Of a stretch of DNA of 64,000 nt, positions 7,891 through 25,899 are shown piece after piece. The stretch lies in assembly GCA_965215145.1 (NCBI GenBank), contig OZ244038.1, positions 1,340,579 to 1,404,578 of the forward strand, given 5' to 3'. The stretch's first letter is position 1. The number at the start of each line of letters is the position of its first letter. This DNA comes from Rhodothermales bacterium (GTDB lineage Bacteria > Bacteroidota > Rhodothermia > Rhodothermales > JANQRZ01). The notes under the pieces were generated by a model, which made no database searches, was not told where the DNA came from, and was given only the letters and a program-made list of their open reading frames with translations. Position numbers and translations under genes: made by a program.

Positions 7891-8466
7891 ATGAACCGAC
7901 TCCGGCTCACCCTCCTCGCCGCCGCCCTCACGGCCCTCGCATGGGCCGGAGGGGACTCGCTCCAGCTTGAACCCGGCAGCAAGATCTGGATCGAGGGGAC
8001 CTCCACCGTCCACGACTGGACGTGCCAGGTCGAGCAGCTCGCCGGCGCGCTCGACGCGGAGCCGGGCCAGGACGGACTCGGGGAGCTAGGCGCCGCCCGC
8101 GTCACCGTCCCCGTGCAGGGGATCGACTGCGACAACGGGACGATGGACGGGAAGCTCCGCGACGCGCTGAAGGCATCCTCCAGCCCCGCCGTCCGCTACA
8201 CCCTCACCCGCGCCGAGGTCGGCGCACCCGGCGCCGACGGGTGGTTCACGCTCGACACGACCGGCCGGCTCAGCATGGCCGGCGCCACCCGGAACGTGGC
8301 GATGGAGGTGCGGGGGAAGGCCCTCGGCGGCGGCCGGTTCCGCTTCACCGGGCAACTCCCCCTCCGCATGACCGACTTCGGGATCGACCCGCCGACGGCG
8401 CTCCTCGGCGCGCTCAAGACGGGCGACCAGGTCACCGTCCACTTCGACGTCACGGCCGGCCGCTAG
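7891..8466 (+). CDS. YceI-like periplasmic lipid/polyisoprenoid-binding protein
   Basis: Signal peptide, then SKIWIEGTSTVHDWTCQV..GATRNVAMEV..LRMTDFGIDPP, the characteristic YceI pattern. Confidence 0.75.
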   Translation: MNRLRLTLLAAALTALAWAGGDSLQLEPGSKIWIEGTSTVHDWTCQVEQLAGALDAEPGQDGLGELGAARVTVPVQGIDCDNGTMDGKLRDALKASSSPAVRYTLTRAEVGAPGADGWFTLDTTGRLSMAGATRNVAMEVRGKALGGGRFRFTGQLPLRMTDFGIDPPTALLGALKTGDQVTVHFDVTAGR

Positions 8467-8470
8467 CCCG

Positions 8471-9070
8471 ATGGCGCTCCGCCACGCTCGCCTCGCGCTC
8501 GCCCTGGCCGCCGGGCTCCTCCTCGCTGGCGCCGGCGCCGCTCAATCCTCCGAGGCCCCCGGTAGCTACGCCCTCCAGGGCGAGAGTCGCTTCTGGATCG
8601 AGGGGACGACCACCGTGGACGACTTCGCGTGCACGGCCGCCCCGGTGCGGGGCCGCGCCGCCGTCGCCCCCCGGGCGGTCGGGGGCACCCTCGCCGTCCC
8701 CGTGGCGGCCTTCGACTGCGGGATCGGGCAGATGAACCGCGACCTCCAGGCCGCCCTCCGCGGCGACGCCCACCCCGAGATCCGCTTCGGGCTCCAGCGG
8801 GCCGAGGCGGCCGGTGCCACGGACGCCGGGGGGTGGGTCCCCGTCCGTGCGTGGGGAACCCTCAGCCTCGCCGGCGCCGAGCGCCTCGTCGCGCTGACGG
8901 CGCAGGGGCGCCGCTACCCCGACGGCCGCGTCCGCATCCGGGGTCGCCACCCCCTCCTCATGACCGACTTCGGCGTCGAGCCCCCCGCCCGGCTGCTCGG
9001 CCTCGTCCGCGTCCACGACCGCATCGTCGTCCACTTCGACCTCGTGGCGGCCCCGGCCGCCGAGGGATAG
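8471..9070 (+). CDS. YceI-like protein (paralogue)
   Basis: Starts 4 nt after the previous stop. SRFWIEGTTTVDDFACTA..LLMTDFGVEPP is parallel to the upstream gene. Confidence 0.75.
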   Translation: MALRHARLALALAAGLLLAGAGAAQSSEAPGSYALQGESRFWIEGTTTVDDFACTAAPVRGRAAVAPRAVGGTLAVPVAAFDCGIGQMNRDLQAALRGDAHPEIRFGLQRAEAAGATDAGGWVPVRAWGTLSLAGAERLVALTAQGRRYPDGRVRIRGRHPLLMTDFGVEPPARLLGLVRVHDRIVVHFDLVAAPAAEG

Positions 9071-9107
9071 ACCTCCTTTCCCCCACGACCACCCAACCTC
9101 ACCCGCC

Positions 9108-10433
9108 ATGCGCCACACCCTCCACGCCCTCCTCGCCGCCGTCCTCCTCGTGCTGCTCGCGCCGCTTGCCCCCGCGCAGGACTTCGGGAGCGACGACGAC
9201 GTCGGCTTCGAGGACATCCAGTACTACCGGCCGAACAGCCAGGCCGGCCTCAACATGTTCGAGGTGCCCAAGGCGGCCAACGCGCCGTTCGACGGCTTCG
9301 AGGTCCACCTCGGCGGCGACTTCGCCATCCAGTTCCAGGCCCTCTCGCAGTCCAACGACGCCGACACCCTCGTCGCCCTGGCGAACAACTTCGCGCTGCC
9401 GACGGCGAACCTCAACGTCGACGTCCAGATCGCCGAGGGGATGCGGATGCACCTCCGCACCTACCTCTCCTCGCGGCACCACCCCGAGGCGTGGGTGAAG
9501 GGCGGCTACTTCCAGATCGACAACCTCGACTTCATCCAGGAGGGCTTCCTGGACAAGGTCATGGAGGTCGCGCGCTTCCGGTTCGGCATGGACGACATCA
9601 ACTACGGCGACACCCACTTCCGCCGCTCGGACAACGCGCGGGCCATCTACAACCCGTTCGTCAGCAACTACATCATGGACGCCTTCTCGACGGAGCCCTT
9701 CGCGGAGGTGACGGTCCTCAGGTCCGGCTTCCTCGGCGTCGCCGGCCTCTCGAACGGCCGCCTCAACCAGAGCCCGCTCGAAGGGGACGATGGCGTCGCC
9801 TTCTACGGCAAGCTCGGCTACGACGGCCAGGTCAACGACGCGGTCCGCGCCCGCCTGACGGGGTCGGTCTACCACAGCACCGACGCCGGTACGCGGGACT
9901 ACCTCTACGGCGGCGACCGTGCGGGGGCCCGGTACTACAACGTCCTGGAGGTGGTCGACGAGGAGCGCCCCAGCGACTTCCTGCCCCGCTTCAACCCGCG
10001 CTTCCCGCACCAGACGGCCGTCATGGTCAACCCGTTCGTGCGGTACCAGGCGCTCGACAACCTGGCCGTCGAGTTCTTCGGTGTGGTCGAGCAGAGCATG
10101 GGTGGGGGTGAGGTCCAGTTGGGCGAGGGGCAGATGGTCAAAAACGGCGGCTTCACGCAGCTCGGCGGCGAGCTCATCCTGCGGCTCGGCCCCGACGACG
10201 ACTTCTACGTCGGCGGGCGCTACAACACCGTCACCGGCGAGCAGGTCGAGGACGGGCCGGAGATGGAGATCAGCCGGCTCAACGTCGGCGGCGGCTGGTA
10301 CCTCACGCAGAACGTGCTGGCGAAGGCGGAGTACGTGACCTCCTCCTACGACGGCGACGGGTTCGCCAACGACATCCGGTACGCCGGCGCCGAGTTCAGC
10401 GGGTTCGTCCTCGAAGCTGCTATCAGCTTCTGA
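9108..10433 (+). CDS. Porin-like outer-membrane beta-barrel protein
   Basis: Signal peptide ending APAQD, alternating amphipathic strands, aromatic C-terminus ..VLEAAISF. The stop is embedded in the palindrome GACCCCGCGGGGTC (10432-10445). Confidence 0.55.
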   Translation: MRHTLHALLAAVLLVLLAPLAPAQDFGSDDDVGFEDIQYYRPNSQAGLNMFEVPKAANAPFDGFEVHLGGDFAIQFQALSQSNDADTLVALANNFALPTANLNVDVQIAEGMRMHLRTYLSSRHHPEAWVKGGYFQIDNLDFIQEGFLDKVMEVARFRFGMDDINYGDTHFRRSDNARAIYNPFVSNYIMDAFSTEPFAEVTVLRSGFLGVAGLSNGRLNQSPLEGDDGVAFYGKLGYDGQVNDAVRARLTGSVYHSTDAGTRDYLYGGDRAGARYYNVLEVVDEERPSDFLPRFNPRFPHQTAVMVNPFVRYQALDNLAVEFFGVVEQSMGGGEVQLGEGQMVKNGGFTQLGGELILRLGPDDDFYVGGRYNTVTGEQVEDGPEMEISRLNVGGGWYLTQNVLAKAEYVTSSYDGDGFANDIRYAGAEFSGFVLEAAISF

Positions 10434-10585
10434 CCCCGCGGGGTCGGCGCCCGCCACGAGGAGGCCGACGGTCGCCAGGGTTTCCGCCGGGTGCTGGAGC
10501 ACACGCTTTAATTTGGCCCTCATGTTCGCGGCACGGCGGCGGCGCAGGTTGGGGCCTTCCCAAGCTGGCCCGCACCCGCCCCGCC

Positions 10586-11374
10586 GTGGCCGTCCCGCTC
10601 CGCCTTCTCCCCCCCCGGCCGGTGACCGACCCGCCGCGCCCGCGCCCCGAGGGCGCCCCATTGCGGCTGGCCCTCGCTCTGCTCGCGGAGCGGGACGTGG
10701 CCGCCGTGCGGGCGTGCTGCCCGCCCCCCGTCGCGGCGGAGGCCGTTGGGGAGGAGGCTCCGTTAAGCGGCGCCTTCGACGCCCTGCTCGTCGGGTGGGA
10801 CGAGGCGGGCGACGGCGACTTCCAACGGTGGGCGCTGCGGGCGCGGACCGCCGGGCTCTACGTCTTCGCCCTCTGCGGCCCGGCCGACCGCGCCGCCGCC
10901 CTCGACGCCGGCGCCGACGCGGCCGTCGCGCACCCCCTCGACCCGGAGGTGCTCCGCGCGCAGGTGCGCGCCCTCCGCCGCCTCACCACCGGCGAGGACA
11001 CCCCGACGCCGCCGGACGGGACGCCGCCGGACGGGCAGCGCGCCGCCGCGCAGCCCCCCGAAGCCCTCGGCCCGCTCCGGCTCGACCGGCGGGCGCGGAC
11101 GGCGACGGTGGCGGGCGCGGACCTCCCCCTCACACTCAAGGAGTTCGACCTCCTCGCCCACCTCCTCGACCACGCCGGGGCGTGCTGCTCGCGCGACGAG
11201 ATCCTCCGCGACGTCTGGGGGATCGACTTCGAGACCGGCACGAACACCATCGACGTCTTCGTCTACGCCCTCCGGCGGAAGCTCCGCAGCCGCGGGCTCT
11301 CCGGCGCGATCCAGACCGTCCGCGGCGTCGGCTACCGCCTCGCGCCGGACGCCCTCACGGCCCCGCCCTCCTGA
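10586..11374 (+). CDS. OmpR/PhoB-type winged-helix regulator with degenerate (pseudo-)receiver domain
   Basis: C-terminal LTLKEFDLLAHLLDHAG..SRDEILRDVWGIDFETGTNTIDVFVYALRRKL..IQTVRGVGYRL is a clear Trans_reg_C. The N-terminal receiver-like region lacks the usual DD pocket and has C and H where the conserved T/S and K normally sit. GTG start uncertain. Confidence 0.7.
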   Translation: MAVPLRLLPPRPVTDPPRPRPEGAPLRLALALLAERDVAAVRACCPPPVAAEAVGEEAPLSGAFDALLVGWDEAGDGDFQRWALRARTAGLYVFALCGPADRAAALDAGADAAVAHPLDPEVLRAQVRALRRLTTGEDTPTPPDGTPPDGQRAAAQPPEALGPLRLDRRARTATVAGADLPLTLKEFDLLAHLLDHAGACCSRDEILRDVWGIDFETGTNTIDVFVYALRRKLRSRGLSGAIQTVRGVGYRLAPDALTAPPS

Positions 11375-11379
11375 CCCCG

Positions 11380-11883
11380 ATGCCCGACTCCTCCACCGGC
11401 GCCGCCACGGGCGGCCAGGTCCGCGTCTCCGCCGCCGTGCTCGACCGGCTCACGACGGTCGCGGCCAGCGAGGTCCCCGGCGTGCTCCACACCGAGAGCT
11501 ACGTCGGCGGCGCCGTCGTGGGCGGGGTGATCGGCGGGGCCGTCGGGTTCGCGCAGGGCGGCCCGGCGGGCGCGGCGGCGGCGGCAGCGGCGGGCTCCGT
11601 CGCGGGGGCGGCGGCGGCCCACCTCCTCCACGAGCGGCGCCGCCAGCAGGAGCTGGCCCCCCTCGACGGCGACGTGGCGCCTGAGCTGGACGTCCGCATC
11701 GTCGCGCGGTACGGGGAGGACCTCCACGCCCTGGCCGAGCAGGTGCGCGGCAGCGTCGAGGCCGCGCTCCGGGAGACGCTGGGGCTCCGCCCGAGCGCCG
11801 TCCGCGTCGAGGTGGTCGATGTGGCGGACCCCGGCTCCGAGCCCGCCCCGGCTCCCTACCCCGGCCCGCCGGCACCGCCATGA
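11380..11883 (+). CDS. Asp23/Gls24-family protein with Gly/Ala-rich hydrophobic insertion
   Basis: ATG 5 nt after the regulator stop. VSAAVLDRLTTVAASEVPGV.. and ..ELDVRIVARYGEDLHALAEQVRGSVEAALRETLGLRPSAVRVEVVDV fit Asp23. The insert is YVGGAVVGGVIGGAVGFAQGGPAGAAAAAAAGSVAGAAAA. Confidence 0.65.
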   Translation: MPDSSTGAATGGQVRVSAAVLDRLTTVAASEVPGVLHTESYVGGAVVGGVIGGAVGFAQGGPAGAAAAAAAGSVAGAAAAHLLHERRRQQELAPLDGDVAPELDVRIVARYGEDLHALAEQVRGSVEAALRETLGLRPSAVRVEVVDVADPGSEPAPAPYPGPPAPP

Positions 11884-12293
11884 CGGCCGCCGACCCCGTC
11901 GAGGAGGCCCGGAGCTACCGCGCCGCGCTCGCCCCGATGCGGGGGAGCGGCTCGGAGGACGGGTGGCTCCTGGCCGCCGCCGCGCTCCGGCAGGCCGCCG
12001 TCGGGGTGCCCGAGGTGGACGGCCTCGCCGACGCGGGCGCGTTCCAGACCCGCGGGCGCGGCCCCGCCGTCCTCGGCATCGCCCTCTCACCCCGGCTCGA
12101 CGGGAGCGTCCGCGCCGACGTGGGGCTCGTGCTGGCATCCTCGGCGCTGGCCGAGCCGGATCGGTTCGCGGCGGCGCTGCGGCTCGTCCGGCAGCGCCTC
12201 CGGGCGACGTGGGAGCGGCTCGGCTCCGGCACCCCCCTGGACCTCCACCTCCACGTCGTGGACGTGGGGCCGCAGGCGCGGGAGGGGGTTTAA
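11880..12293 (+). CDS. Asp23-like protein (divergent)
   Basis: ATGA start/stop overlap with the previous gene. C-terminal VRADVGLVLASSALAEPDRFAAALRLVRQRLRATWERLG..LDLHLHVVDV follows the Asp23 pattern. Confidence 0.45.
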   Translation: MTAADPVEEARSYRAALAPMRGSGSEDGWLLAAAALRQAAVGVPEVDGLADAGAFQTRGRGPAVLGIALSPRLDGSVRADVGLVLASSALAEPDRFAAALRLVRQRLRATWERLGSGTPLDLHLHVVDVGPQAREGV

Positions 12294-12354
12294 TGCGCTC
12301 ATCATAAACCACTAAGCCGCTGCTCATGCACGCCTGCTACCGGCGCCGCCAGCT

Positions 12355-13008
12355 TTGGACCGCCCCTCTTCCGCAGCGGCGCCCGCCCGCCCCGTGAACC
12401 CCCGCCTCCTCTACGGCCTGCTCCGCCTCGCCGCCCTCCTCGTGGGCGCGGCGCTGCTGCTCGGCGGCCTCGTCCTGCTGGCCCACAGCCTCGACGCGAC
12501 GGGGCCCTTCCGCGCGCTGCTCGGCGGGGGCGGGCTCGCCCTCGGGCTCGACCTGACGGAGTTCCCGCTGCGCGAGCGGTGGGTGTGGGCCGCCGCCGCC
12601 GTGGGGGTCGCGCTGCTGGGCGGGGCGCTGCTCGCGCTGGCCCTCGCGCCGACGGCCGAGCAGCGCGAGCGGAGCCGGCGCGTCCGCCTCTCGGGGCACA
12701 GCCGCAACGGGCTCTACGGCAGCGGCGAGGTCACCGTCTCGATGCGGAGCCTCTACGCCCTCGTCGTCCACGAGGCCGAGCGCGACCCCGCCGTGCGCGA
12801 GGCCGACCCCTCGCTCCGGCTTCAGCGCGACGGGTGGCACCTCGCCTGCCGCCTCGTCGTCACGCCCGAGGCCGTGCTGCCGGAGGTGGCCGCCCGCCTG
12901 AAGCCCCGCCTCAAGGACGCCCTCGAGCGCCACACCGGCCTCCCCGTAGCCCGCACCGACCTCGACGTCCAGCTCTTCGCCCTCGACGCCCGCCAGCGCG
13001 TCTACTGA
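12355..13008 (+). CDS. AmaP-like membrane anchor protein (alkaline-shock operon type)
   Basis: Two N-terminal TM helices, then GEVTVSMRSLYALVVHEAERDPAVREA..LACRLVVTPEAVLPEVAARLKPRLKDALERHTGLPVARTDLDV. Sits directly before the DUF2273-like and Asp23 genes. Confidence 0.55.
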   Translation: MDRPSSAAAPARPVNPRLLYGLLRLAALLVGAALLLGGLVLLAHSLDATGPFRALLGGGGLALGLDLTEFPLRERWVWAAAAVGVALLGGALLALALAPTAEQRERSRRVRLSGHSRNGLYGSGEVTVSMRSLYALVVHEAERDPAVREADPSLRLQRDGWHLACRLVVTPEAVLPEVAARLKPRLKDALERHTGLPVARTDLDVQLFALDARQRVY

Positions 13009-13034
13009 GCGCGCCCCGCCCCGAGCCTGATCCG

Positions 13035-13340
13035 ATGGGACCCCACGACCCGTTCCCTCCCCGTACCGACCGCCCCGGCTCCGGCCTGGGGGCTCCGCCG
13101 CCAGCCCCTCCCAGCGGGGGCGCCTCTCCGGCGCCACGCTCGCCGCGCACGGGTGCCCTCGCCGGCCTCACGCTCGGGGCCGCGTTCGGGTTCGTCGTGG
13201 TGGTGGCGGGGGTGGGAGCCGCGCTGCTGGTCCTCTTCTGCGCCGCCGTCGGGGCCGCCCTCGGCGCCGTCGTCTACGGCGCCCTCGCCGGCCGGCTCGA
13301 CCCGGCGGCGGCGTGGCGCTCGCTCTGGCGCTCCCCCTGA
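13035..13340 (+). CDS. Small integral membrane protein, DUF2273-like
   Basis: ATG 13035. Pro-rich N-terminus, then GALAGLTLGAAFGFVVVVAGVGAALLVLFCAAVGAALGAVVYGAL (two Gly/Ala-rich TM helices). Positioned between the AmaP-like and Asp23 genes. Confidence 0.5.
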   Translation: MGPHDPFPPRTDRPGSGLGAPPPAPPSGGASPAPRSPRTGALAGLTLGAAFGFVVVVAGVGAALLVLFCAAVGAALGAVVYGALAGRLDPAAAWRSLWRSP

Positions 13341-13388
13341 CACTCTGGCGCTCCCCCTGACGCTCCCCTCACCCAACCCCCTCCCCTC

Positions 13389-13886
13389 ATGGCTAAGACC
13401 CAGACCACTCCCGAGAAGGCCGGCGGCAACACGGGCTCCCCCCGCCGCGCCGGCGCGGACCTGATCGTCCCCGACGGGGCCTCCGTGCTCACCGGCGACG
13501 ACGGCCGCACCATCGTCCACAACCAGGTCGTCGCCAAGATCGCCGGGCTGGCCGTGCAGGAGATCGAGGGGGTCAACCGGCTCGTGCCCTACGGCGCCGG
13601 GCAGGCCGTGACCTCGTTCGCCAAGAACATCACGCGCAGCGACATGCACGACCTCGGGGTGCACGTCGAGGTCGGGGAGCGCGAGGCGGCCGTGGACGTC
13701 CGCGTCGTGACGGACTACGGCGCCAGCATCCCCGCCATCGCCGACGCCGTGCGCCGGAACGTCTCGGACCGGATCGGGGGGATGACCGGGCTGAAGGTGG
13801 TCGAGGTCAACATCGACGTGATCGACCTGTACTTCCCCGAGGAGGAGCAGGAGCCGGCCCCCGCACCGACGACGCGCGTGCAGTAG
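13389..13886 (+). CDS. Asp23/Gls24-family envelope stress protein
   Basis: TIVHNQVVAKIAGLAVQEIEGVNRL..VHVEVGEREAAVDVRVVTDYGASIPAIADAVRRNVSDRIGGMTGLKVVEVNIDVIDL is a canonical Asp23 pattern. Confidence 0.8.
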   Translation: MAKTQTTPEKAGGNTGSPRRAGADLIVPDGASVLTGDDGRTIVHNQVVAKIAGLAVQEIEGVNRLVPYGAGQAVTSFAKNITRSDMHDLGVHVEVGEREAAVDVRVVTDYGASIPAIADAVRRNVSDRIGGMTGLKVVEVNIDVIDLYFPEEEQEPAPAPTTRVQ

Positions 13887-14053
13887 CCACATGCAGTAGC
13901 CACCGTGAGTAGCCGGACGCGGGCAGCGGCCCCGTCGATGGCCTGCGCCAGCGGCTCACGAACCTCGCCCGACCGGCGGCGTAACCCGGCCGGAGCGCGT
14001 CCCTCCCGGGTCGCCGGACCCCTCTTTCCCCCTCTGACAACGCCGTCCCTCCC

Positions 14054-14572
14054 ATGCTGCCATTCTCCCGACTCTCCCGCCTGCTCGTGCTCCTCGCCTT
14101 CGCGGGTGCAGGCCTCGTCGGCTGCGACTCCGAAGACCCCGTCGCCATCCCCACGCCGGAGGACCTCGAGGGCCTCTACGACTTCACCGAGTACCGGTTC
14201 GTGCCTGACGCCTCGGCCGTCGAGCCGGCCAACGTGCTCGACACACTCGTGGCGGCGCAGACGAGCATGGAGCTCTTCGGGAGTGGGCGGGTGATCTTCC
14301 GCTACAAGGTCGAGGAGGAGCCGAGCAACGCGCTCGACGGTTCCTTCGACCTCAACGCGACGCAGCTCCGGCTGCGCCTCGTGGGCGAGGGCGCGCTGAC
14401 GCGGCTGCTGCTCACCTCGCCCCTCATCTTCGAGCGGAACGACGAGGCCGGCCGGCTCACGCTGGACCAGGAGACCACGGCGAACCTCGCCGCCTACGAC
14501 CCCGACCGCTACGAGGGCCTGAACAGCGTCGACGGCACGCTCATGATCACCCTCGTCCGCCGCTCCGAGTAG
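14054..14572 (+). CDS. Lipoprotein of unknown function
   Basis: Lipobox LLAFAGAGLVGCDS. About 150-aa beta-rich mature part, no motif recognised. Confidence 0.5.
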   Translation: MLPFSRLSRLLVLLAFAGAGLVGCDSEDPVAIPTPEDLEGLYDFTEYRFVPDASAVEPANVLDTLVAAQTSMELFGSGRVIFRYKVEEEPSNALDGSFDLNATQLRLRLVGEGALTRLLLTSPLIFERNDEAGRLTLDQETTANLAAYDPDRYEGLNSVDGTLMITLVRRSE

Positions 14573-14668
14573 CACTGCCCGCTCCCCCTTTGGCCGTTCC
14601 ATGCGGAATGGCCTGCACCCGCCGGCTGCCGAAGGCGCGGCGTTCCCTTCTCTCGCACCTCCCCTCCT

Positions 14669-17266
14669 ATGATGCGCTCCCGCCCGCGTCCGGCCTCCCC
14701 GCGCCTTACCGGTCTCGTCCTGCTCCTCGCTCTCGCCTGTGCCACGGCGGCGCCCGCCGAAGCTCAGCTCCGCGGCGTCGGCTACCGGTTCTCGCCGACG
14801 GCCGGCTACGTCTCGTTCGAGGACAACGCCGGCCTCACCGACGGCTTCCTCTACGGCGGTGGGCTCGGCCTGAGCTTCGGGGAGTTCGTCGAGCTCGGCG
14901 GGCTCTACCTCGTCGGCAACGACTTCGAGACGGACTTCTCAGGCTTCTCGGGGCTCGAAGACGACACCGACCTCGCTGGCATGTTCGAGGCGATCCCGGC
15001 GCGCGAGGTGGACGTCCGCCGCTACGGCGGCGAGCTCACGCTCCGGCTCAGCAGCACCGGCCTCGCCCCCTTCCTCGTCGGCGGCGCCGGCGTCATCCGG
15101 TTCGACCCCGAGGGCCGGGACCCGAGCGAGAACATCTACCTCTCCGGCGGTGCGGGCATCCAGCTCACCGGGGCCGACCGGTTCGCGCTCGCGCTCCAGG
15201 GCCAGCTCCTGACCTACCGCTACAACCCCGCCAGCACCCTCCTCACCGCCGAGGATTTCGCCGGCCTCAGCACCGCGGACCGGATGGCCGTGAACCGGGA
15301 CCTCCTCGTCCGCAACCTCGCCTTGCGGGCCTCGCTCCGGCTCTACCTCGGCGGGCGCCGCCCCGGCGAGCTGACCGACGTCGACCGGGCCTACCTCGAG
15401 CAGTTCTCCGGCGGCCTCAGCGGGCTCAGCCTCCAGGTCGAGCCGTTCTACGGGCGGCTCAACTTCAACGACGACCTCCCCTACCGCGACCAGTCGTTCG
15501 TCGGCGCCGAGGCCGGCGTGAACCTCGGCCCGCTCGTGGGGCTCCGGGGGTTCTACATGCGCGGCGTGGACTCCGGCGACCCCTTCGACTTCCAGCCCAT
15601 CCAGCTCTTCGGCGGGCACGCCAAGCTCCGGCTCTCCGAGGGCGCCGGCGTCGTCCCCTTCATCACCGTCGGCGCCGGCTACCTCGACGTGCTGAGCGAC
15701 TACGGGGAGCTCGAGGCGGCCGAGCTTTTCGGCCCCCGCGGCGGCACCATCGGCTTCGTCGGGCAGGAGCGGTTCGAGGACAAGCCGTTCGCGCAGGGCG
15801 GCGCCGGGCTCGAGGTCCCGATCAGCCCGCGCCTCCGGCTCCACGGCGAGGCCCGCGCCTTCGTCATCTCGAACCAGGAGGCCGGCGACGTGAGCCGGCC
15901 GGAGGAGGTCAAGATCAGCCCGATGTACCGCGGCGGCCTCACCTTCGGCCTCGGCGGCTCGACGGGCGACGCGCCGGCCGTCGTCACGCGCGCGGAGCTC
16001 GAGCGGCAACTCGCCGAGGAGCGGCGCGAGGCCGCCGAGGAGTACGTCGCGCTCGAACAGGAGCTGGCCGAGGCCCGCCTCCGGGGGGACTCGCTCGCGG
16101 CGGCGCGGATCGAGGCTGAGCAGGCCCGCGCGCTCGAGATGGCGACGCAGCAGCCGGCGCCGGCCGCCCTGGAGGAGCCCGTGATGGTCCGGCAGCCGGA
16201 CGGCCGGGTGGTCGTGCAGCAGCCGGCCGAGCGCCGCTCCGGCGACCTCGTGGTGGTGGGGGAGGAGGTCCGCACCGCGCAGGGCGACCGGATCGTGACG
16301 ATCCCGCTGCCGGAGCAGGGCGAGCTCTACGTCCGCTACGGCGACCCCGGCGGGGTCCAGATCGAGTCCACCTTCGAGGGCGAGGAGGCCGGCGCCCGCG
16401 CCGCCGCCCCCGCCTCGGCACAGGCCGCGGCGCCGAGCGACGAGGAGCTGCGCGCCCTGATCCGCGAGGCCGTCGGCGACGCCGTCGCCGCCGAGGGCGA
16501 GGCCGCCGACGAGGACGCCCGTGTGGCCGACCTCGAACGGCAGCTCGAAGACCTCGTCCGCTCCGAGATCGAGCGCGAGCAGGTCGAGGGCGTCTCCGAG
16601 GCCGAGCTCGAGCTGATGGAGCGCCGCCTGCTCGACCGCCTCACCGACGAGATCCGCGACCTCCGCGGGGACGTCCGCGACGACCTGCGTGATGACCGGG
16701 ACGATGCCCCCGTGATCGTGCAGACCCCGCAGCCGGGCGTGGTCGCCCCCGTCACCGGCCAGGGTGCGGTGGCCGTGGCCGAGCCGGCGGTGGTGGAGCG
16801 GCAGGGGTTCGTCGGGATCTCGCCCGTGGCCGGGTTCGCCTTCGGGCGGGGGCCGGAGCAGGTGCTGATCGGCCTCCGCACCGAGTACCACCCCGGCGGC
16901 CTCTCCGACCTCCGGTACTACCCCGAGCTGCTGCTCGGCGTCGGCGGCGAGCGCTCGTTCGCCTTCAACGTGAACGGCATCTTCGGCGTCCCCGGCTTCG
17001 ACGACCAGCTCGCCCCCTATGCCGGCGTCGGCCTCGGCGTCGTCAGCTACGCCGGCGACGGCGACGACAGCGGCGGCAACACCGACCCCTTCTTCGGGAA
17101 CGTGGACGACGGCGGCGACGACGTACCGGGCTTCCTGCTCACGCTCAACCTCGCGCTCGGCGCCGAGTTCGAGGTGGGCCGGAACCGGGTCTTCACCGAG
17201 CTCAACACGGCCAACCTGACCCGGTTCTACCGGCTCCTCGTCGGCTACCGCTTCGACTTCGACTGA
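14669..17266 (+). CDS. 865-aa outer-membrane protein: beta-barrel-like modules flanking an acidic coiled-coil region
   Basis: Signal peptide ..AAPAEAQ. Residues about 35-445 and about 700-865 have Gly/aromatic-rich alternating strands typical of small OM barrels. Residues about 447-690 are Glu/Arg/Asp-rich heptad-like sequence (ELERQLAEERREAAEEYVALEQELAEARL.., DLERQLEDLVRSEIEREQVEG..). Confidence 0.6.
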   Translation: MMRSRPRPASPRLTGLVLLLALACATAAPAEAQLRGVGYRFSPTAGYVSFEDNAGLTDGFLYGGGLGLSFGEFVELGGLYLVGNDFETDFSGFSGLEDDTDLAGMFEAIPAREVDVRRYGGELTLRLSSTGLAPFLVGGAGVIRFDPEGRDPSENIYLSGGAGIQLTGADRFALALQGQLLTYRYNPASTLLTAEDFAGLSTADRMAVNRDLLVRNLALRASLRLYLGGRRPGELTDVDRAYLEQFSGGLSGLSLQVEPFYGRLNFNDDLPYRDQSFVGAEAGVNLGPLVGLRGFYMRGVDSGDPFDFQPIQLFGGHAKLRLSEGAGVVPFITVGAGYLDVLSDYGELEAAELFGPRGGTIGFVGQERFEDKPFAQGGAGLEVPISPRLRLHGEARAFVISNQEAGDVSRPEEVKISPMYRGGLTFGLGGSTGDAPAVVTRAELERQLAEERREAAEEYVALEQELAEARLRGDSLAAARIEAEQARALEMATQQPAPAALEEPVMVRQPDGRVVVQQPAERRSGDLVVVGEEVRTAQGDRIVTIPLPEQGELYVRYGDPGGVQIESTFEGEEAGARAAAPASAQAAAPSDEELRALIREAVGDAVAAEGEAADEDARVADLERQLEDLVRSEIEREQVEGVSEAELELMERRLLDRLTDEIRDLRGDVRDDLRDDRDDAPVIVQTPQPGVVAPVTGQGAVAVAEPAVVERQGFVGISPVAGFAFGRGPEQVLIGLRTEYHPGGLSDLRYYPELLLGVGGERSFAFNVNGIFGVPGFDDQLAPYAGVGLGVVSYAGDGDDSGGNTDPFFGNVDDGGDDVPGFLLTLNLALGAEFEVGRNRVFTELNTANLTRFYRLLVGYRFDFD

Positions 17267-17270
17267 GCCC

Positions 17271-18347
17271 ATGCGCGCGACCCGCCTCCTCCTGCCCCTC
17301 GCCGTGGTGACCCTCGCGGTTGCTCCCGTCCGAGCACAGACCGACACCACGGCCGCGCGGCCAACGGCGGGCGTGAGTGGCACCTCGGACCGCGTGGCGA
17401 CGGTGCCGCTCCCGAACGGCAGCGGGGTCTTCTACTACCGCTCGGGCCGGCCCGGCGGCGTCCGCATCCGCTCGCGCGCCGGCCGCCCGGCTCCGACGGA
17501 GCGGGGCCTCCGCGCTGACGACCTCCGCAGTGCCCTCGGCGACGTCGAGCCCGGTACGCGGGAGGCCCTCCGCAGCGGCGAGCCCGTCACCCGCCTCGAC
17601 CTGCTCCGCCTCGAGCTCGCGCTCCGCCGCGCCCTCGACGACAAGCTCGACGGCCTCCGCCTCCAGCCCTACGCCGCCGACCGCGACCGGGTCTACCGCG
17701 ACGGGAGCGGCCGGCCGGTGGTCGTCGTGCCGGGGCAGGGCGTGACCACGCTGCCGCAGGGGTTCGCGCCGACCCAGGGGACGCCAGCGCCGACCGGCCA
17801 GCCGTCTACGCCGCCGAGGGTGGAGGTCCCCCGGTCCGAGCTGGCGCCGGTCGCGCCGGGGGCGGTGACCGCGACGGAGGTGGAGCGTGCCTTGCTCGAC
17901 GCCGGGCTCTTCCGCGCCGTCGAGGTCCACTTCGAGTTCGACGAGGCCACGCTGCTGCCGACGGCGGAGCGGGCGCTCGACACCATCGGCGGGGTGCTCG
18001 TCCGGTACCCGAGCCTGGAGGTCGGCATCGGGGGGCACACCGACAGCATCGGCTCGGACGCCTACAACCTCCAGCTCTCGCAGGCCCGCGCCGCGGCCGT
18101 CCGCGCCTACCTCCTGGTCCGGTTCCCCGGCATCGCCCCCGAGCGCCTCGCCGCACGCGGGTTCGGCGAGGCGGAGCCCATCGCCACCAACGCCAACCCG
18201 ACGGGGCGGACGCTGAACCGCCGAGTGGAGTTCGTCGTGCTCAACCCGGAGGAGGTCCCGACGGTCGAGCCGGAGCCCGTGGAGGACCGGCTCCGGCGGC
18301 TGATCCAGGAGGAGCTGCGCGAGGCGCGCGAGGGGGACGACGGTTGA
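17271..18347 (+). CDS. OmpA-family peptidoglycan-binding protein
   Basis: Starts 4 nt after the previous stop. Signal peptide. C-terminal GGHTDSIGSDAYNLQLSQARAAAVRAYL..GFGEAEPIATNANPTGRTLNRRVEFVV is a canonical OmpA_C domain. Confidence 0.85.
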   Translation: MRATRLLLPLAVVTLAVAPVRAQTDTTAARPTAGVSGTSDRVATVPLPNGSGVFYYRSGRPGGVRIRSRAGRPAPTERGLRADDLRSALGDVEPGTREALRSGEPVTRLDLLRLELALRRALDDKLDGLRLQPYAADRDRVYRDGSGRPVVVVPGQGVTTLPQGFAPTQGTPAPTGQPSTPPRVEVPRSELAPVAPGAVTATEVERALLDAGLFRAVEVHFEFDEATLLPTAERALDTIGGVLVRYPSLEVGIGGHTDSIGSDAYNLQLSQARAAAVRAYLLVRFPGIAPERLAARGFGEAEPIATNANPTGRTLNRRVEFVVLNPEEVPTVEPEPVEDRLRRLIQEELREAREGDDG

Positions 18348-18359
18348 TGCGGGCAGCGG

Positions 18360-19157
18360 TCAGAGCCGGACCAGCTCCGCGTCGTCGTAGTCCCGGTCGG
18401 CGCCCGCCACGAGGTCGGCCTCGTCGTCGCGGCGGCGGAGGAGGCCGGGGAGGCCGGCGCTCCGCCAGATCCGCTTCATCGCCCGGAGCTCCTCGGCGAT
18501 GCCGTCGAGGTCGCGCTGGGGGATGAGCCCGCGGATCGCCTTCATCTCGCGGCGGCTGCCGCCCGAGAGGGCGGTGCCGCGGTTGTAGACGAGCGAGAGG
18601 AGCGCGCCCTGCGCGTCGGCCGGGAGGTCCTCGATGCCGGGGTAGGTGCGGCGGGTGCGGCGGGCGTACTCCGGCAGCGTCTGCGTGTAGAACACCCGCT
18701 CGGCCGCGTCGAGCGGCACCGTCACCGTCTTGACCCGGCCGACGGCGCGGCGGGCGTCGTCGCCCTTGAGCCCCGCCACGGTCAGCAGCTTGGCGAGGTC
18801 GGCGTCGGTGAGGAGCCCGCGCCACGTCTTCTCAATCTGGTTGGCCGCGGCGTACCCGAGGTCGTAGCCGATGCCGACGGTGACGCCGCTCTGCCCGCCC
18901 GGCCAGACGGGGTGCTGGAGCCGCCGCCAGTAGTTCGCCGCCGAGCCGATCTCGTGGTCCACGATGAGGCCGATGCTCCGCTTCGAAACGATGAGGTTGT
19001 GGGGCTCAGGGGCATCGGAGGCGTCGGGCACGGCGTCGCAGGCGTCGAGGACCGCCTCAAGCCGCGTCAGCGTGATCGGGCCGACGAGGCCGTCGGCGGA
19101 GACGCCGAGGCGGCGCTGGATGGCCTGGATACGCTCGCGGACGGTGAGGGTGCTCAT
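18360..19157 (-). CDS. Peptidoglycan-binding domain + lysozyme-like (phage/pesticin-type muramidase) protein
   Basis: ATG 19157 (MSTLTVRERIQAIQRRLGVSADGLVGPITL is PG_binding_1-like). Then SIGLIVDHEIGS..VWPGGQSGVTVGIGYDLGY resembles GH24/pesticin-type lysozymes. No signal peptide. Confidence 0.55.
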   Translation of the reverse strand: MSTLTVRERIQAIQRRLGVSADGLVGPITLTRLEAVLDACDAVPDASDAPEPHNLIVSKRSIGLIVDHEIGSAANYWRRLQHPVWPGGQSGVTVGIGYDLGYAAANQIEKTWRGLLTDADLAKLLTVAGLKGDDARRAVGRVKTVTVPLDAAERVFYTQTLPEYARRTRRTYPGIEDLPADAQGALLSLVYNRGTALSGGSRREMKAIRGLIPQRDLDGIAEELRAMKRIWRSAGLPGLLRRRDDEADLVAGADRDYDDAELVRL

Positions 19158-19206
19158 GGCGGCGGGGGTCTCTGCATCAAGACGCCGGCAGGATACGGAT
19201 CCGCCT

Positions 19207-20253
19207 TCAACACGAGAGCCGCCGCAGCCTGCGCGGAAGGTCGTCCGGCAGCCGCCACGGCGCGCGGGGGATCCGCTCCCACCCGAACCGGGAGACGAGC
19301 GCCTGTGGCACCACCGGCTCCGGGCGGTCGAGCAGGCCGAGCGAGTGGGCCAGCGCGCCGACGACAGCTTCGGGAGGGACACCGGCCTCGCGCAGCGCCC
19401 GCAGCGTCAGCGCCGCGTCCCGCTTCGACAGCTTCTCGCCGGCGGCGTTGACGACGAGGGGGAGGTGGGCGTAGGCGGGCCGGCCGCTGCCGAGGGCCCC
19501 GATGAGCTGGATCTGCCGCGCCGTCGAGTCCAGCAGGTCGGCGCCGCGGACGACCTCGGTGACGCCCATCGCGAGGTCGTCCACGACGACGGCGAGCTGG
19601 TAGGCGTAGAGCCCGTCGCGGCGCTTGAGGACGAAGTCGCCCACGACCTCGGCCACGTCATCCGCCTGCGGGCCCAGCACGCGGTCCTCCCACCGAACGA
19701 CACCGTCGGCCACGCGGAGGCGCAGCGCGGCGTCCGGCCGCTCGGCGGAGGAGAAGGCGTCGAACCAGTCAATCGGGAGACCCTTCGGGCGGAGCGAAGC
19801 CGGATAGGGGGGGAGCCCCGAGGCCCCGTGCGGCGCCGAGGCGATTTCTACCAAGTCCTTCCGGGAGACGCGGCAGGGGAACAGCCGCCCGGCCTCCGCC
19901 AGCCGCCGCAGCGCCGCCTCGTAGACCGGTCCGCGCTCGCTCTGCCGGTACGGCGCGTGCGGCCCGCCGTCGGGTCCGTTGCTGGACCCCGGCCCCTCGT
20001 CCCAGTCGAGCCCGAGCCAGCGGAGGTCGTCCAGCGCGGCCTCGGCCGTGCCGGGCACGACGCGCGGAGGGTCGAGGTCCTCAATGCGCCAGACGAACGC
20101 GCCATCCTGGCTCCGCGCTGAGAGCCACGCCGCCAGCGCCGTCCGCGCGCTGCCGACGTGGAGAAGGCCGGTGGGAGAGGGGGCCCATCGGCCTCGGAGG
20201 GGGGACGTGTGCGGGGGCACGAGCGTTGTACCTTCGTCTAACCACCGCTCCAT
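19207..20253 (-). CDS. gluQ: Glutamyl-Q tRNA(Asp) synthetase (truncated GluRS paralogue)
   Basis: [19 protein letters not shown] (HIGH region), WRIEDLD and GEKLSKRD (KMSKS-like). Its length lacks an anticodon-binding domain. The true start may be the GTG near 20220. Confidence 0.75.

Positions 20254-20379: not shown

Positions 20380-25899
<5,520 letters not shown>

What the first reader, a model, noticed from the sequence alone, without database searches (positions are those of the whole stretch)
7891..18347. 12-gene same-strand envelope cluster joining YceI pair, three OM proteins, a pseudo-receiver regulator and an Asp23/AmaP module
Seen in sequence: twelve consecutive plus-strand genes with very short gaps (4 nt at 8466/8471, 5 nt at 11374/11380, an ATGA overlap at 11880-11883, 4 nt at 17266/17271). 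The only larger spacers are about 150-170 nt (10434-10585, 13887-14053). Contents are two signal-peptide YceI proteins, a porin-like OMP, an OmpR-type regulator with degenerate receiver, Asp23, Asp23-like, AmaP-like, DUF2273-like, Asp23, a lipoprotein, an 865-aa OMP and an OmpA-domain protein. Established knowledge: Asp23/AmaP/DUF2273 is a membrane-anchored cell-envelope stress module characterised in Firmicutes. YceI proteins bind isoprenoid or lipid ligands in the periplasm. OmpA_C domains tether the OM to peptidoglycan. Inference: the cytoplasmic-face Asp23 scaffold, periplasmic lipid binders and dedicated OM proteins form one regulon for envelope or lipid homeostasis in a diderm. I do not know of a described system with this composition.
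Basis: partly seen in the sequence, partly recalled or inferred. Interest (0 to 1): 0.7.

Follow-up and report, generated by a model that had tools for sequence, protein, structure and literature searches.

The report
Two envelope gene modules, side by side
The 12-gene run is real, but it is two independent envelope modules that happen to be adjacent in this genome; the second is an undescribed Gram-negative version of the Asp23 stress module, tied to its own regulator and to outer-membrane and cell-wall-binding proteins.

Summary
Twelve plus-strand genes lie at 7891-18347 with the stated gaps, and most domain calls survive profile or fold tests.

The "one regulon" reading is only partly right. 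Genes 1-3 (YceI, YceI, a 16-strand porin) form a separate module. It is conserved across Bacteroidota and Rhodothermota without any Asp23 genes nearby. It is absent from all 13 related Asp23 loci, including the nearest relative.

Genes 4-12 form a nine-gene block conserved in every informative Rhodothermales locus, despite different flanks and a relocated regulator gene. The block holds:
- an OmpR-type regulator whose receiver lacks the phospho-acceptor Asp and the conserved Lys in all orthologues;
- four Asp23-fold proteins, including an AmaP-like anchor, plus a DUF2273-like membrane protein;
- a lipoprotein, a 24-strand barrel protein with a long periplasmic insert, and a periplasmic OmpA-domain protein that shares a motif with that insert.

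Conserved AT-rich cis-elements occur almost only inside the block. A similar set (Asp23, AmaP, DUF2273, barrel, OmpA-lipoprotein), with an ECF sigma factor as regulator in two of the five loci, recurs independently in Myxococcota-type genomes.

Verdict: a new diderm variant of a known module. The mechanism is inferred, not shown.

The parts
7891..8466 (+). Module A: periplasmic YceI-family protein (g01), with signal peptide
   Evidence: Pfam YceI 54.4 bits, E 2.4e-14
8471..9070 (+). Module A: YceI paralogue (g02), with signal peptide
   Evidence: No Pfam hit, but 40% identity to g01 over 168 aa, E 2e-39
9108..10433 (+). Module A: 16-strand porin of a very conserved, unnamed Bacteroidota/Rhodothermota family (g03)
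   Evidence: More than 6500 homologues at 57-80% identity with no Pfam domain. AF2 pLDDT 79.8, pTM 0.79. Foldseek matches to OmpT/OmpF/OmpK36/DcaP/OprO, probability 1.0, TMt 0.55-0.67.
10507..10523 (+). Conserved cis-element TTTAAT-N6-CTCAT(GTT), 63 nt upstream of the g04 start (measured from the element's 3' end)
   Evidence: The same element sits at the same position in L001-L006, L027 and L042. AT-rich 8-mers form only 11 clusters in the 64 kb.
10586..11374 (+). Module B: OmpR/PhoB-family regulator with a phosphorylation-dead pseudo-receiver (g04)
   Evidence: Trans_reg_C 83.9 bits and no Response_reg hit. Only the C-terminal half of a receiver aligns to PrrA/RegX3. The acceptor Asp and the conserved Lys are absent in all 12 orthologues.
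11380..11883 (+). Module B: Asp23-domain protein split by a glycine-zipper hydrophobic insert (g05)
   Evidence: Pfam Asp23 43.2 bits (residues 100-148) and Gly-zipper_Omp at residues 43-86. Orthologues in 11 loci.
11880..12293 (+). Module B: divergent Asp23-like protein of a tiny lineage-specific family (g06)
   Evidence: Only 24 representatives among 1.84 billion proteins. hhalign against Asp23: 79% probability, E 1.5e-5, 88 columns. No Pfam hit.
12289..12305 (+). Second copy of the cis-element (TTTAAT-GCGCTC-ATCAT). It overlaps the g06 stop codon and ends 49 nt upstream of the g07 start.
   Evidence: Orthologous sites lie upstream of AmaP in L001-L006, L027 and L042.
12355..13008 (+). Module B: AmaP-like anchor with two TM helices and a C-terminal Asp23-like domain (g07)
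   Evidence: NCBIfam anchor_AmaP E 2.2e-10, profile positions 6-166 of 166, below the cut-off. The Rhodocaloribacter orthologue hits DUF6286 weakly.
13035..13340 (+). Module B: DUF2273-like small two-TM protein with a conserved MGPxDPF N-terminus (g08)
   Evidence: Pfam DUF2273 16.6 bits, weak. The L042 orthologue also has a weak DUF2273 hit. Orthologues listed.
13389..13886 (+). Module B: canonical Asp23/Gls24 protein (g09)
   Evidence: Pfam Asp23 84.5 bits. 1118 homologues; the nearest named one is Rubrivirga.
14054..14572 (+). Module B: lipoprotein (lipobox LVGC followed by acidic DSEDP) (g10)
   Evidence: Read from the sequence. Lipobox and C-D-S/T start conserved in 9 orthologues. No family hit.
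14669..17266 (+). Module B: 865-aa outer-membrane protein with 16 + 8 beta-strands flanking a ~270-aa periplasmic helical/disordered insert (g11)
   Evidence: Pfam OMP_b-brl 46.5 bits. AF2 pLDDT 78.5, 24 strands, helices at 441-675. About 152 homologues, nearly all Rhodothermales.
17271..18347 (+). Module B: periplasmic OmpA-domain (peptidoglycan-binding) protein. Its N-terminal motif is shared with the g11 insert (g12).
   Evidence: Pfam OmpA 73.7 bits. g11 residues 540-612 versus g12 residues 40-99: 40% identity, E 4e-6.

Best explanation
The run is a lineage-specific juxtaposition of two independently conserved envelope modules. Module A (7891-10433) holds two periplasmic YceI-type lipid or isoprenoid binders and a 16-strand porin. 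Module B (10586-18347) is a nine-gene unit found across Rhodothermales, with three parts. (i) An OmpR-family DNA-binding regulator whose receiver cannot be phosphorylated. (ii) A scaffold on the cytoplasmic face of the inner membrane: an AmaP-like anchor, a DUF2273-like protein and three further Asp23-fold proteins, one with a glycine-zipper membrane hairpin. (iii) An outer-membrane set: a lipoprotein, a 24-strand barrel protein with a long periplasmic helical insert, and a soluble OmpA-domain protein. The OmpA-domain protein probably docks on that insert through a shared ~30-residue motif, which would give a two-piece outer-membrane-to-peptidoglycan tether. Proposed working (inferred): the Asp23 scaffold reports inner-membrane or envelope state and controls the pseudo-receiver regulator by binding rather than by phosphorylation. 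This mirrors what has been suggested for ECF-sigma-linked Asp23 clusters. The regulator would then act on AT-rich repeat elements in front of the cluster's sub-operons to adjust the scaffold and, probably, the tether. Shown: gene content, domain and fold calls, conserved linkage, the dead receiver, the cis-elements and the shared motif. Inferred: protein contacts, who binds the cis-elements, the direction of signalling and co-transcription.
For: The g04-g12 block is syntenic in L001-L009, L027, L040 and L042 (Rubrivirga, Rubricoccaceae MAGs, Roseithermus, Rhodocaloribacter, Rhodothermaceae MAGs); L026 is cut off at Asp23c. Flanking genes differ in every genus, and the regulator gene moves between three positions while staying in the block. 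g01-g03 never occur in these loci. The porin with YceI genes occurs elsewhere without Asp23. The receiver lacks the acceptor Asp and the conserved Lys in 12 of 12 orthologues. Repeats of [TA]TTAA-N6-[TA]TTAA with an 11-bp period, in 2-3 copies, occur only in the cluster's intergenic spots in L007, L008, L009, L026 and L040, against a shuffle expectation of 0.00. The Rubricoccaceae variant TTTAAT-N6-CTCATGTT occurs upstream of the regulator and of AmaP: both sites were found in eight relatives (L001-L006, L027, L042), and in the window the AmaP-side copy is a shorter, diverged version. The g11/g12 shared motif scores E 4e-6 and its core residues are at least 90% conserved in the g11 family. Independent recurrence: L011, L013, L015, L020 and L023 carry Asp23, AmaP and an OmpA-domain lipoprotein; DUF2273 was detected in L013 and L023, and a barrel-type protein in four of the five. 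An ECF sigma factor was found in L011 and L023, and an MscS-like protein in L011, L015 and L023. ECF groups that neighbour several Asp23 copies are published, with Asp23 proposed as an anti-sigma-like factor (PMC7826278). In S. aureus, AmaP anchors Asp23 to the inner face of the membrane, and its loss triggers cell-wall stress (PMC6954212).
Against: In the window and in L007 no cis-element lies upstream of the lipoprotein gene. Where one does (L008, L009, L040) it sits in the spacer shared with the divergent regulator gene, so it could serve only autoregulation. The Rubricoccaceae element resembles a -10 box plus a start region and may be a promoter rather than an operator. Operon boundaries cannot be read from the sequence: there are no sigma-70 or terminator calls, and spacer folds are no better than shuffles. 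The Asp23 proteins have almost no periplasmic exposure, so a physical link to the outer-membrane set is not evident. The AmaP and DUF2273 calls are below curated thresholds. The g11 model does not resolve whether there is one barrel or several (TM about 0.1-0.3).
Confidence: 0.6

Rival explanations
1. One reading: all twelve genes, including the YceI pair and the porin, form one envelope or lipid-homeostasis regulon.
For: All are on the same strand with short gaps. All products belong to the envelope. An AT-rich island also lies 52 nt upstream of g01.
Against: g01-g03 are absent from all 13 related Asp23 loci. The porin with YceI genes recurs without Asp23 in L037, L038, L043 and L044, and the porin stands alone in L036. 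The 80%-identity relatives keep the modules apart. The island upstream of g01 lacks the CTCAT half and is not conserved in L043. A 152-nt spacer separates g03 from g04.
Confidence: 0.08
2. Within module B, the Asp23 part and the lipoprotein-barrel-OmpA trio are functionally unrelated neighbours kept together only by inherited synteny.
For: There is a 167-nt spacer and no shared cis-element upstream of g10 in the window or in L007. The regulator gene sits between the two parts on the opposite strand in L008, L009 and L040, so they are separate transcripts there. A g11 homologue stands alone in Neolewinella.
Against: The two parts are adjacent in every informative Rhodothermales locus, while both flanks turn over and the regulator relocates. 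g11 identity falls to about 31-35%, so the lineages are old. OmpA-domain and barrel genes are interleaved between Asp23 and AmaP in Myxococcota-type loci with unrelated architectures.
Confidence: 0.2
3. The AT-rich elements are ordinary promoter or UP-type elements of a very GC-rich genome, not binding sites of the cluster's regulator. The regulator may act elsewhere.
For: AT-rich islands are rare and tend to lie in intergenic spots across the window. TTTAAT resembles a -10 hexamer, and the conserved ATG lies 9 nt downstream of it.
Against: Other promoters in the 20-kb loci lack the element; the repeat pairs occur only inside the cluster. The 11-bp period in 2-3 direct copies is the geometry used by OmpR/PhoB-family dimers (established knowledge).
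Confidence: 0.3

Closest known systems
Staphylococcus aureus asp23 operon (amaP, DUF2273 gene, asp23; Mueller et al. 2014, as cited in PMC6954212)
   Same: The gene order AmaP-like, then DUF2273-like, then Asp23 (g07-g08-g09) is the same. The anchor has two TM helices and places Asp23 at the cytoplasmic face. The theme is cell-envelope stress.
   Different: This organism is a diderm with 72-76% GC. It has two extra Asp23-fold proteins (one with a glycine-zipper insert, one highly divergent). A pseudo-receiver OmpR-type regulator takes the place of sigma-B control. A lipoprotein, a barrel protein and an OmpA-domain protein are conserved neighbours. There is no opuD2 gene.
ECF286/ECF292 sigma-factor neighbourhoods with several Asp23 copies (Casas-Pastor et al. 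2021, PMC7826278)
   Same: Several Asp23 paralogues sit next to a dedicated transcription regulator, with the idea that Asp23 proteins control that regulator. The Myxococcota-type loci found here include an ECF sigma factor in two cases (L011, L023).
   Different: In the window the regulator is an OmpR-family protein, not a sigma factor. Outer-membrane and OmpA partners are not mentioned in the passages of that paper that name Asp23. Whether the ECF sigma factors in L011 and L023 belong to ECF286 or ECF292 was not tested.
Atypical (phosphorylation-independent) OmpR/PhoB-family response regulators
   Same: A winged-helix Trans_reg_C output domain is combined with a receiver-like domain lacking the acceptor Asp and the Lys. 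No partner kinase is encoded in the conserved block.
   Different: No sequence relationship to a characterised atypical regulator was tested. The N-terminal half of the receiver is too diverged to align.
OmpA-type outer-membrane-to-peptidoglycan tethers (OmpA, Pal)
   Same: g12 carries a canonical OmpA_C peptidoglycan-binding domain. g11 supplies beta-barrel membrane anchoring.
   Different: Barrel and OmpA domain are on two polypeptides that share a short motif. The barrel protein has 24 strands and a ~270-aa periplasmic insert. g12 is neither a lipoprotein nor a barrel protein.
YceI family (periplasmic polyisoprenoid/lipid-binding lipocalin-like proteins) and general 16-strand porins (OmpF/OmpT/OprO)
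   Same: g01 passes the Pfam YceI threshold. The g03 model superposes on general porins.
   Different: g03 belongs to an unnamed family with unusually high conservation (57-80% identity from Rhodothermales to Cytophagales). Its recurrent pairing with YceI genes was not found described in the searches made here.

Membership tests
Asp23 family (Pfam PF03780) | Score above the Pfam gathering threshold (28 bits) | tested here: met
   g09 scores 84.5 bits over the full domain. g05 scores 43.2 bits over the C-terminal half only, because the domain is interrupted by a glycine-zipper insert.
Asp23 family (Pfam PF03780) | g06 recognisable as an Asp23 domain | tested here: inconclusive
   No Pfam hit for g06 or for 20 relatives. 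hhalign with 7 sequences gave 12.7% probability. With 21 sequences it gave 79.4%, E 1.5e-5, 88 aligned columns.
AmaP (NCBIfam NF033218) | Score above the curated cut-off (55 bits) | tested here: not met
   g07 scores 40.6 bits, E 2.2e-10, aligned to profile positions 6-166 of 166. It is therefore AmaP-like, not a curated equivalog.
AmaP (NCBIfam NF033218) | Architecture of N-terminal TM helices plus a C-terminal Asp23-like domain, encoded next to asp23 and a DUF2273 gene | tested here: met
   Two hydrophobic helices (about residues 18-43 and 76-98) are followed by an Arg-rich stretch and a domain that the AmaP model also matches in g09. The gene order is g07-g08-g09.
DUF2273 (Pfam PF10031) | Score above the gathering threshold (25.4 bits) | tested here: not met
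   g08 scores 16.6 bits, E 0.008. The L042 orthologue has a weak hit. Size, the two-TM hairpin and the gene position agree with the family.
YceI (Pfam PF04264) | Score above the gathering threshold (23.7 bits) | tested here: met
   g01 scores 54.4 bits. g02 has no hit itself but is 40% identical to g01, E 2e-39.
OmpR/PhoB-family response regulator | Trans_reg_C winged-helix DNA-binding domain | tested here: met
   83.9 bits. It aligns to PrrA and RegX3.
OmpR/PhoB-family response regulator | Receiver domain with a phospho-acceptor Asp and a conserved Lys | tested here: not met
   No Response_reg hit. The acceptor column holds G/S/W/A/H and the Lys column holds H/L/F/P across 12 orthologues.
OmpA_C-like peptidoglycan-binding domain (Pfam PF00691) | Score above the gathering threshold (27.2 bits) | tested here: met
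   g12 scores 73.7 bits over profile positions 2-98 of 98.
Outer-membrane beta-barrel (Pfam PF13505; fold) | Pfam threshold, an even number of amphipathic strands and a signal peptide | tested here: met
   g11 scores 46.5 bits. AF2 gives 24 strands. Foldseek finds only generic barrel matches.
General 16-strand porin fold | Structural superposition on solved porins | tested here: met
   The g03 model (pTM 0.79) matches OmpT, OmpF, OmpK36, DcaP and OprO at probability 1.0, TMt 0.55-0.67. Trimer formation was not tested.
Bacterial lipoprotein | Signal peptide ending in a lipobox with an invariant Cys | tested here: met
   g10 reads ...AGLVG-C-DSEDP. A Cys preceded by A/G and followed by D-S/T is present in all 9 orthologues. 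No dedicated predictor was run.
Single operon or regulon of all 12 genes | Conserved linkage of all members in relatives | tested here: not met
   g01-g03 are unlinked from g04-g12 in every relative examined.

The most novel reading that the evidence does not exclude
Module B and its Myxococcota-type counterparts define an undescribed envelope-monitoring system of diderm bacteria. In it, an inner-membrane Asp23/AmaP/DUF2273 scaffold acts as an anti-sigma-like controller of a dedicated transcription factor that needs no phosphorylation: a pseudo-receiver OmpR-type protein in Rhodothermales, an ECF sigma factor in Myxococcota. The system's dedicated partners are a barrel protein, an OmpA-domain protein and a lipoprotein that tether the outer membrane to peptidoglycan. 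This would give the enigmatic Asp23 family a testable signalling role.
Probability: 0.3. Interest if true: 0.75.

Novelty: new variant of a known kind. Interest (0 to 1): 0.55.

Why it matters
[quoted passage not shown] A diderm version would give concrete, testable hypotheses about what Asp23 scaffolds do. This version is locked to a regulator that cannot be phosphorylated, to recognisable cis-elements, and to an outer-membrane/peptidoglycan tether. It would also point to how two-membrane bacteria that lack the classical E. coli pathways couple inner-membrane state to outer-membrane attachment. Separately, the porin family found with YceI genes is very large, very conserved and unnamed.

Tried and rejected
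1. Exact-sequence look-ups of the window's own Asp23c and of its 100%-identical database copy returned nothing. Context therefore came from relatives.
2. The sigma-70 promoter and intrinsic terminator scan gave 0 promoters and 1 terminator-like site on the wrong strand, no more than in shuffles.
3. RNA folding of the spacers after g03, g09 and g12 and of the g04 leader gave z-scores between +0.2 and -1.5. This is not informative in such GC-rich DNA, so the CCCCGCGGGG hairpin after g03 cannot be called a terminator.
4. An Rfam scan of the whole window found no family.
5. The first hhalign of g06 against Asp23, with 7 sequences, was too weak (12.7%). It was repeated with 21 sequences.
6. Foldseek of the g11 model against the PDB gave only generic barrels with poor TM-scores. 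Whether g11 forms one barrel or three is unresolved.
7. I tested whether the conserved ATG inside the cis-element is the regulator's start codon. It is out of frame in the window and in L005, so this was rejected.
8. I tested whether the AT-rich island upstream of g01 is the same element. It lacks the second half and is not conserved in L043, L044 or L037, so this was rejected.
9. Literature searches for Asp23 in Myxococcus, Rhodothermus, Salinibacter or Bacteroidota, or together with OmpA, found nothing relevant. Most 'Asp23' hits refer to residue Asp23 of TolR.
Full report
**Observation**

The window is 72-76% GC, so every frame carries long spurious ORFs. The gaps are as stated: 4 nt, 37 nt, 152 nt, 5 nt, a 4-nt ATGA overlap, 61, 26, 48, 167, 96 and 4 nt.

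Profile searches support most of the calls.
- g01 is YceI, at 54 bits.
- g04 has Trans_reg_C only, at 84 bits.
- g05 has the C-terminal half of an Asp23 domain (43 bits) plus a glycine zipper.
- g09 is Asp23, at 84.5 bits.
- g11 is OMP_b-brl, at 46.5 bits.
- g12 is OmpA, at 73.7 bits.
- g02 has no Pfam hit but is a clear paralogue of g01 (40% identity, E 2e-39).
- g07 matches the NCBIfam AmaP model over its whole length, but below the curated cut-off (40.6 versus 55 bits, E 2e-10).
- g08 matches DUF2273 only weakly (16.6 bits).
- g10 has a lipobox (LVG-C) that is conserved in nine orthologues.

Flanking genes are a helicase (5888-7672, +), a lysozyme-like gene (18360-19382, -) and a class I Glu/Gln tRNA-synthetase-family gene (19207-20253, -).

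**Where the window comes from**

The Asp23 gene g09 has a 100%-identical copy on a 3.67-Mb contig. Its nearest named relatives are Rubrivirga and other Rhodothermales.

**Test of linkage**

I anchored a genome scan on g09, which returned 33 loci with 10 kb on each side. I then searched them with all twelve proteins and three flanking proteins.

- Genes g04 to g12 occur together and in order in L001-L009 and L027; L026 is cut off at Asp23c.
- Look-ups added Rubrivirga (L034), a Rhodothermales MAG (L035), Rhodocaloribacter litoris (L040) and the nearest relative, L042, whose Asp23c is 80% identical.
- The genes outside the block differ in every genus. Upstream neighbours include Aminotran_4, PAD_porph, OprB and an Xre/RES pair. 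Downstream neighbours include HicB/rpmH, a CCC permease, DciA and a thioesterase.
- None of the window's three flanking proteins has a hit in any locus.
- The regulator gene changes place. It is co-directional at the head of the block in the Rubricoccaceae type. It is divergent upstream in Roseithermus (L007). It lies on the opposite strand between Asp23c and the lipoprotein gene in L008, L009 and L040. It never leaves the block.
- g11 identity falls to 31-35% in the distant members.

This conservation goes well beyond inherited synteny.

**The YceI pair and the porin are a separate module**

None of g01-g03 is found in any of these loci.
- The porin g03 belongs to a very large family without a Pfam model. 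It has more than 6500 homologues at 57-80% identity, from Rhodothermales to Cytophagales, Saprospirales and Balneolales.
- Its contexts are: porin-YceI-YceI in a Rubricoccaceae MAG (L037), YceI-porin-YceI in Roseivirga (L038), and the porin alone in Roseithermus (L036).
- In the closest homologue (80% identity, L043/L044) the order YceI-YceI-porin is the same as in the window. It is followed there by an ATP-grasp gene and a CCC permease, not by the regulator and Asp23 genes.
- No Asp23 gene is near any of them.
- An AlphaFold model built from 32 sequences (pLDDT 79.8, pTM 0.79) superposes on 16-strand general porins: OmpT, OmpF, OmpK36, DcaP and OprO, at probability 1.0 and TMt 0.55-0.67.

So "porin-like" is right. 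But A (g01-g03) and B (g04-g12) are two modules whose adjacency is private to this genome.

**Anatomy of module B: the regulator**

The regulator aligns to solved OmpR-family proteins (PrrA, RegX3) only from the fourth strand of the receiver onwards. In an alignment of twelve orthologues, the phospho-acceptor column holds G, S, W, A or H. The conserved Lys column holds H, L, F or P. The "degenerate receiver" is therefore real and conserved. No histidine kinase is part of the conserved block.

**Anatomy of module B: the Asp23 set**

There are four Asp23-fold units.
- g05 is interrupted by a Gly/Ala-rich hydrophobic hairpin.
- g06 belongs to a tiny family, with 24 representatives among 1.84 billion proteins. 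It matches Asp23 only by profile-profile comparison (79% probability, E 1.5e-5, 88 columns).
- The C-terminal domain of g07 is Asp23-like.
- g09 is a canonical Asp23.

g07 has two TM helices followed by an Arg-rich stretch, so its Asp23-like domain should face the cytoplasm, as AmaP does in S. aureus (PMC6954212). The order g07-g08-g09 equals amaP, the DUF2273 gene, then asp23.

**Anatomy of module B: the outer-membrane set**

- g11 was modelled from 67 sequences (pLDDT 78.5). It has 16 strands (37-428), then helices and disorder (441-712), then 8 more strands (713-863). The even strand counts place the ~270-residue insert in the periplasm. Foldseek gives only generic barrel matches, so the number of barrels is unresolved.
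- g12 has a signal peptide, a linker and an OmpA domain. It has no barrel and no lipobox.
- Residues 40-99 of g12 resemble residues 540-612 of g11 (40% identity, E 4e-6). The core is DR-x-T-[IV]-P-[LV]-P-x-G-x-x-Y-x-R-x-G-x-PGGV. The P, G, E, Y and R positions of that core are at least 90% conserved in the g11 family.

I infer that g12 docks on the g11 insert, giving a two-piece outer-membrane-to-peptidoglycan tether with g10 as a third partner.

**Cis-elements**

In the Rhodothermaceae-type loci, direct repeats of [TA]TTAA-N6-[TA]TTAA occur in two or three copies with an 11-bp period, all on the plus strand. They are found only inside the cluster.
- Upstream of Asp23a: L007 8303-8329, L008 200, L026 3820, L040 4747.
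- Upstream of Asp23c: L007 9862-9888, L008 2034, L040 6579.
- In the spacer between the divergent regulator gene and the lipoprotein gene: L008 3681-3707, L009 2063-2090, L040 8322-8348.

The expectation from shuffles is 0.00.

In the Rubricoccaceae type the element is [TA]TTAA[TC]-N6-(C)CTCATGTT. It lies upstream of the regulator and upstream of AmaP. Both sites were found by a loose pattern in L001-L006, L027 and L042. In the window the regulator-side site is at 10507-10523. The AmaP-side site at 12289-12305 is a shorter, diverged copy that the loose pattern missed and that I identified by eye and with a pattern derived from the two sites.

An 11-bp direct-repeat geometry is what OmpR/PhoB-family dimers use (established knowledge), so the cluster's own regulator is the obvious candidate binder. 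There are caveats.
- The Rubricoccaceae form could be a -10-like box plus a start region.
- No element lies upstream of g10 in the window or in L007.
- The element in the regulator/lipoprotein spacers could serve only autoregulation.
- Promoter, terminator, RNA-fold and Rfam scans gave nothing usable.

**Independent recurrence**

Five of the non-Rhodothermales diderm loci carry an Asp23 gene, an AmaP-like gene and a lipoprotein of 375-1303 aa ending in an OmpA domain: L011, L013, L015, L020 and L023 (Myxococcota, Bradymonadales, "Deltaproteobacteria").
- DUF2273 was detected in L013 and L023.
- A secreted protein of about 510-570 aa with weak barrel signals is present in L011, L013, L015 and L023.
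- A 246-260 aa OMP_b-brl protein is present in L011, L013 and L015, and a small lipoprotein in L011 and L013.
- In L011, L013 and L015 these genes lie between Asp23 and AmaP on one strand.
- L011 and L023 add an ECF sigma factor. L011, L015 and L023 add an MscS-like membrane protein.
- The proteins are not orthologous to g10-g12 apart from the OmpA domain, so the composition has arisen or been kept independently.
- Chloroflexota and Actinomycetota loci have Asp23, in some cases with AmaP, and no OmpA hit.

Published work already notes ECF286 and ECF292 sigma factors next to several Asp23 copies. It proposes that Asp23 proteins act as a new kind of anti-sigma factor (PMC7826278).

**How it most likely works**

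Shown:
- two modules;
- a conserved nine-gene block;
- a dead receiver;
- four Asp23-fold units with a membrane anchor;
- a barrel protein with a periplasmic insert;
- an OmpA protein that shares a motif with that insert;
- cluster-specific cis-elements.

Inferred:
- The Asp23 scaffold at the inner face of the inner membrane senses or stabilises membrane or envelope state.
- It holds or releases the pseudo-receiver regulator by protein contact.
- The regulator acts at the AT-rich repeats to tune the scaffold genes and, probably, the tether genes.
- The tether adjusts attachment of the outer membrane to the wall.

I give about 0.8 to the two-module structure and to the functional unity of module B. 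I give about 0.35 to the specific signalling scheme.

**Comparison and novelty**

The Asp23/AmaP/DUF2273 core is the known Firmicute module, and Asp23 clusters with dedicated ECF regulators are known. Three things were not found described in the searchable literature.
- The diderm form has conserved barrel, OmpA and lipoprotein partners.
- A phosphorylation-dead OmpR-type regulator takes the place of a sigma factor.
- The cluster has its own cis-elements.

I class it as a new variant of a known kind. The Asp23/outer-membrane link and the pseudo-receiver hold up. The inclusion of YceI and the porin, and hence the lipid-homeostasis framing built on them, does not.

Noticed in passing
window 9108-10433; loci L036-L038, L043, L044: The porin g03 belongs to a very large family (more than 6500 homologues) that is unusually conserved (57-80% identity across Rhodothermota and several Bacteroidota orders) and has no Pfam or NCBIfam model. 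It usually sits next to one or two YceI genes, in varying order. Neighbouring genes include anion transporters: Na/Pi cotransporter with PhoU in L037, and SulP in L038. The best TM-scores relative to the query are to the phosphate porin OprO.
   Followed up: partly
window 10507-10523 and 12289-12305; L007 8303-8329 and 9862-9888; L040 4747, 6579 and 8322-8348; L008 200, 2034 and 3681-3707: Cluster-specific AT-rich cis-elements. They are 11-bp-period TTTAA direct repeats in Rhodothermaceae-type loci, and TTTAAT-N6-CTCATGTT in Rubricoccaceae-type loci. They are absent from the rest of each 20-kb locus.
   Followed up: yes
window 16286-16504 (g11 residues 540-612) and 17388-17567 (g12 residues 40-99): The periplasmic insert of the barrel protein and the N-terminus of the OmpA-domain protein share a motif (DR-x-T-[IV]-P-[LV]-P-x-G-x-x-Y-x-R-x-G-x-PGGV; 40% identity, E 4e-6). 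It is a candidate docking element.
   Followed up: partly
window 13323-13361: A 19-bp sequence, CTCTGGCGCTCCCCCTGAC, occurs twice with a 20-bp period. It spans the g08 stop codon and the spacer before g09, so the second copy repeats the stop context.
   Followed up: no
window 13879-13914: Directly after the g09 stop, GCAGTAGCCAC occurs twice 14 bp apart, followed by AGTAGCC. L002 instead has an inverted repeat (GCCACGCGGTGGC) at the same place. The meaning is unknown.
   Followed up: no
L011, L013, L015, L020, L023: Myxococcota/Bradymonadales-type Asp23 clusters. Asp23, AmaP and an OmpA-ending lipoprotein of 375-1303 aa occur in all five loci. A ~510-570 aa barrel-like protein occurs in four, a 246-260 aa OMP_b-brl protein in three, DUF2273 in two, an ECF sigma factor in L011 and L023, and an MscS-like TM protein (PF05552) in L011, L015 and L023.
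   Followed up: partly
L039 and L041 (Neolewinella), 8081-11913: The only g11 homologues found outside Rhodothermales (967-970 aa, about 30% identity) stand alone. Each is divergent from an ECF sigma factor / DUF4097 pair, with no Asp23 or OmpA neighbour.
   Followed up: no
window 14054-14572 (g10) and its orthologues: The lipoprotein Cys is always followed by D-S/T and more acidic or small residues (CDSEDP, CDSGD, CDSSD). This resembles the acidic surface-export signal of Bacteroidota lipoproteins (from memory, not tested), so g10 might be surface-exposed.
   Followed up: no
window 18360-19382 (- strand): A 340-aa gene converges on g12 with a 12-nt gap. It has sub-threshold Phage_lysozyme and Pesticin hits (about 21 and 18 bits). 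It is not present next to the block in any relative.
   Followed up: no
window 20380-25899 (+ strand): A very long ORF (1839 aa) lies just downstream of the region. It was not examined.
   Followed up: no
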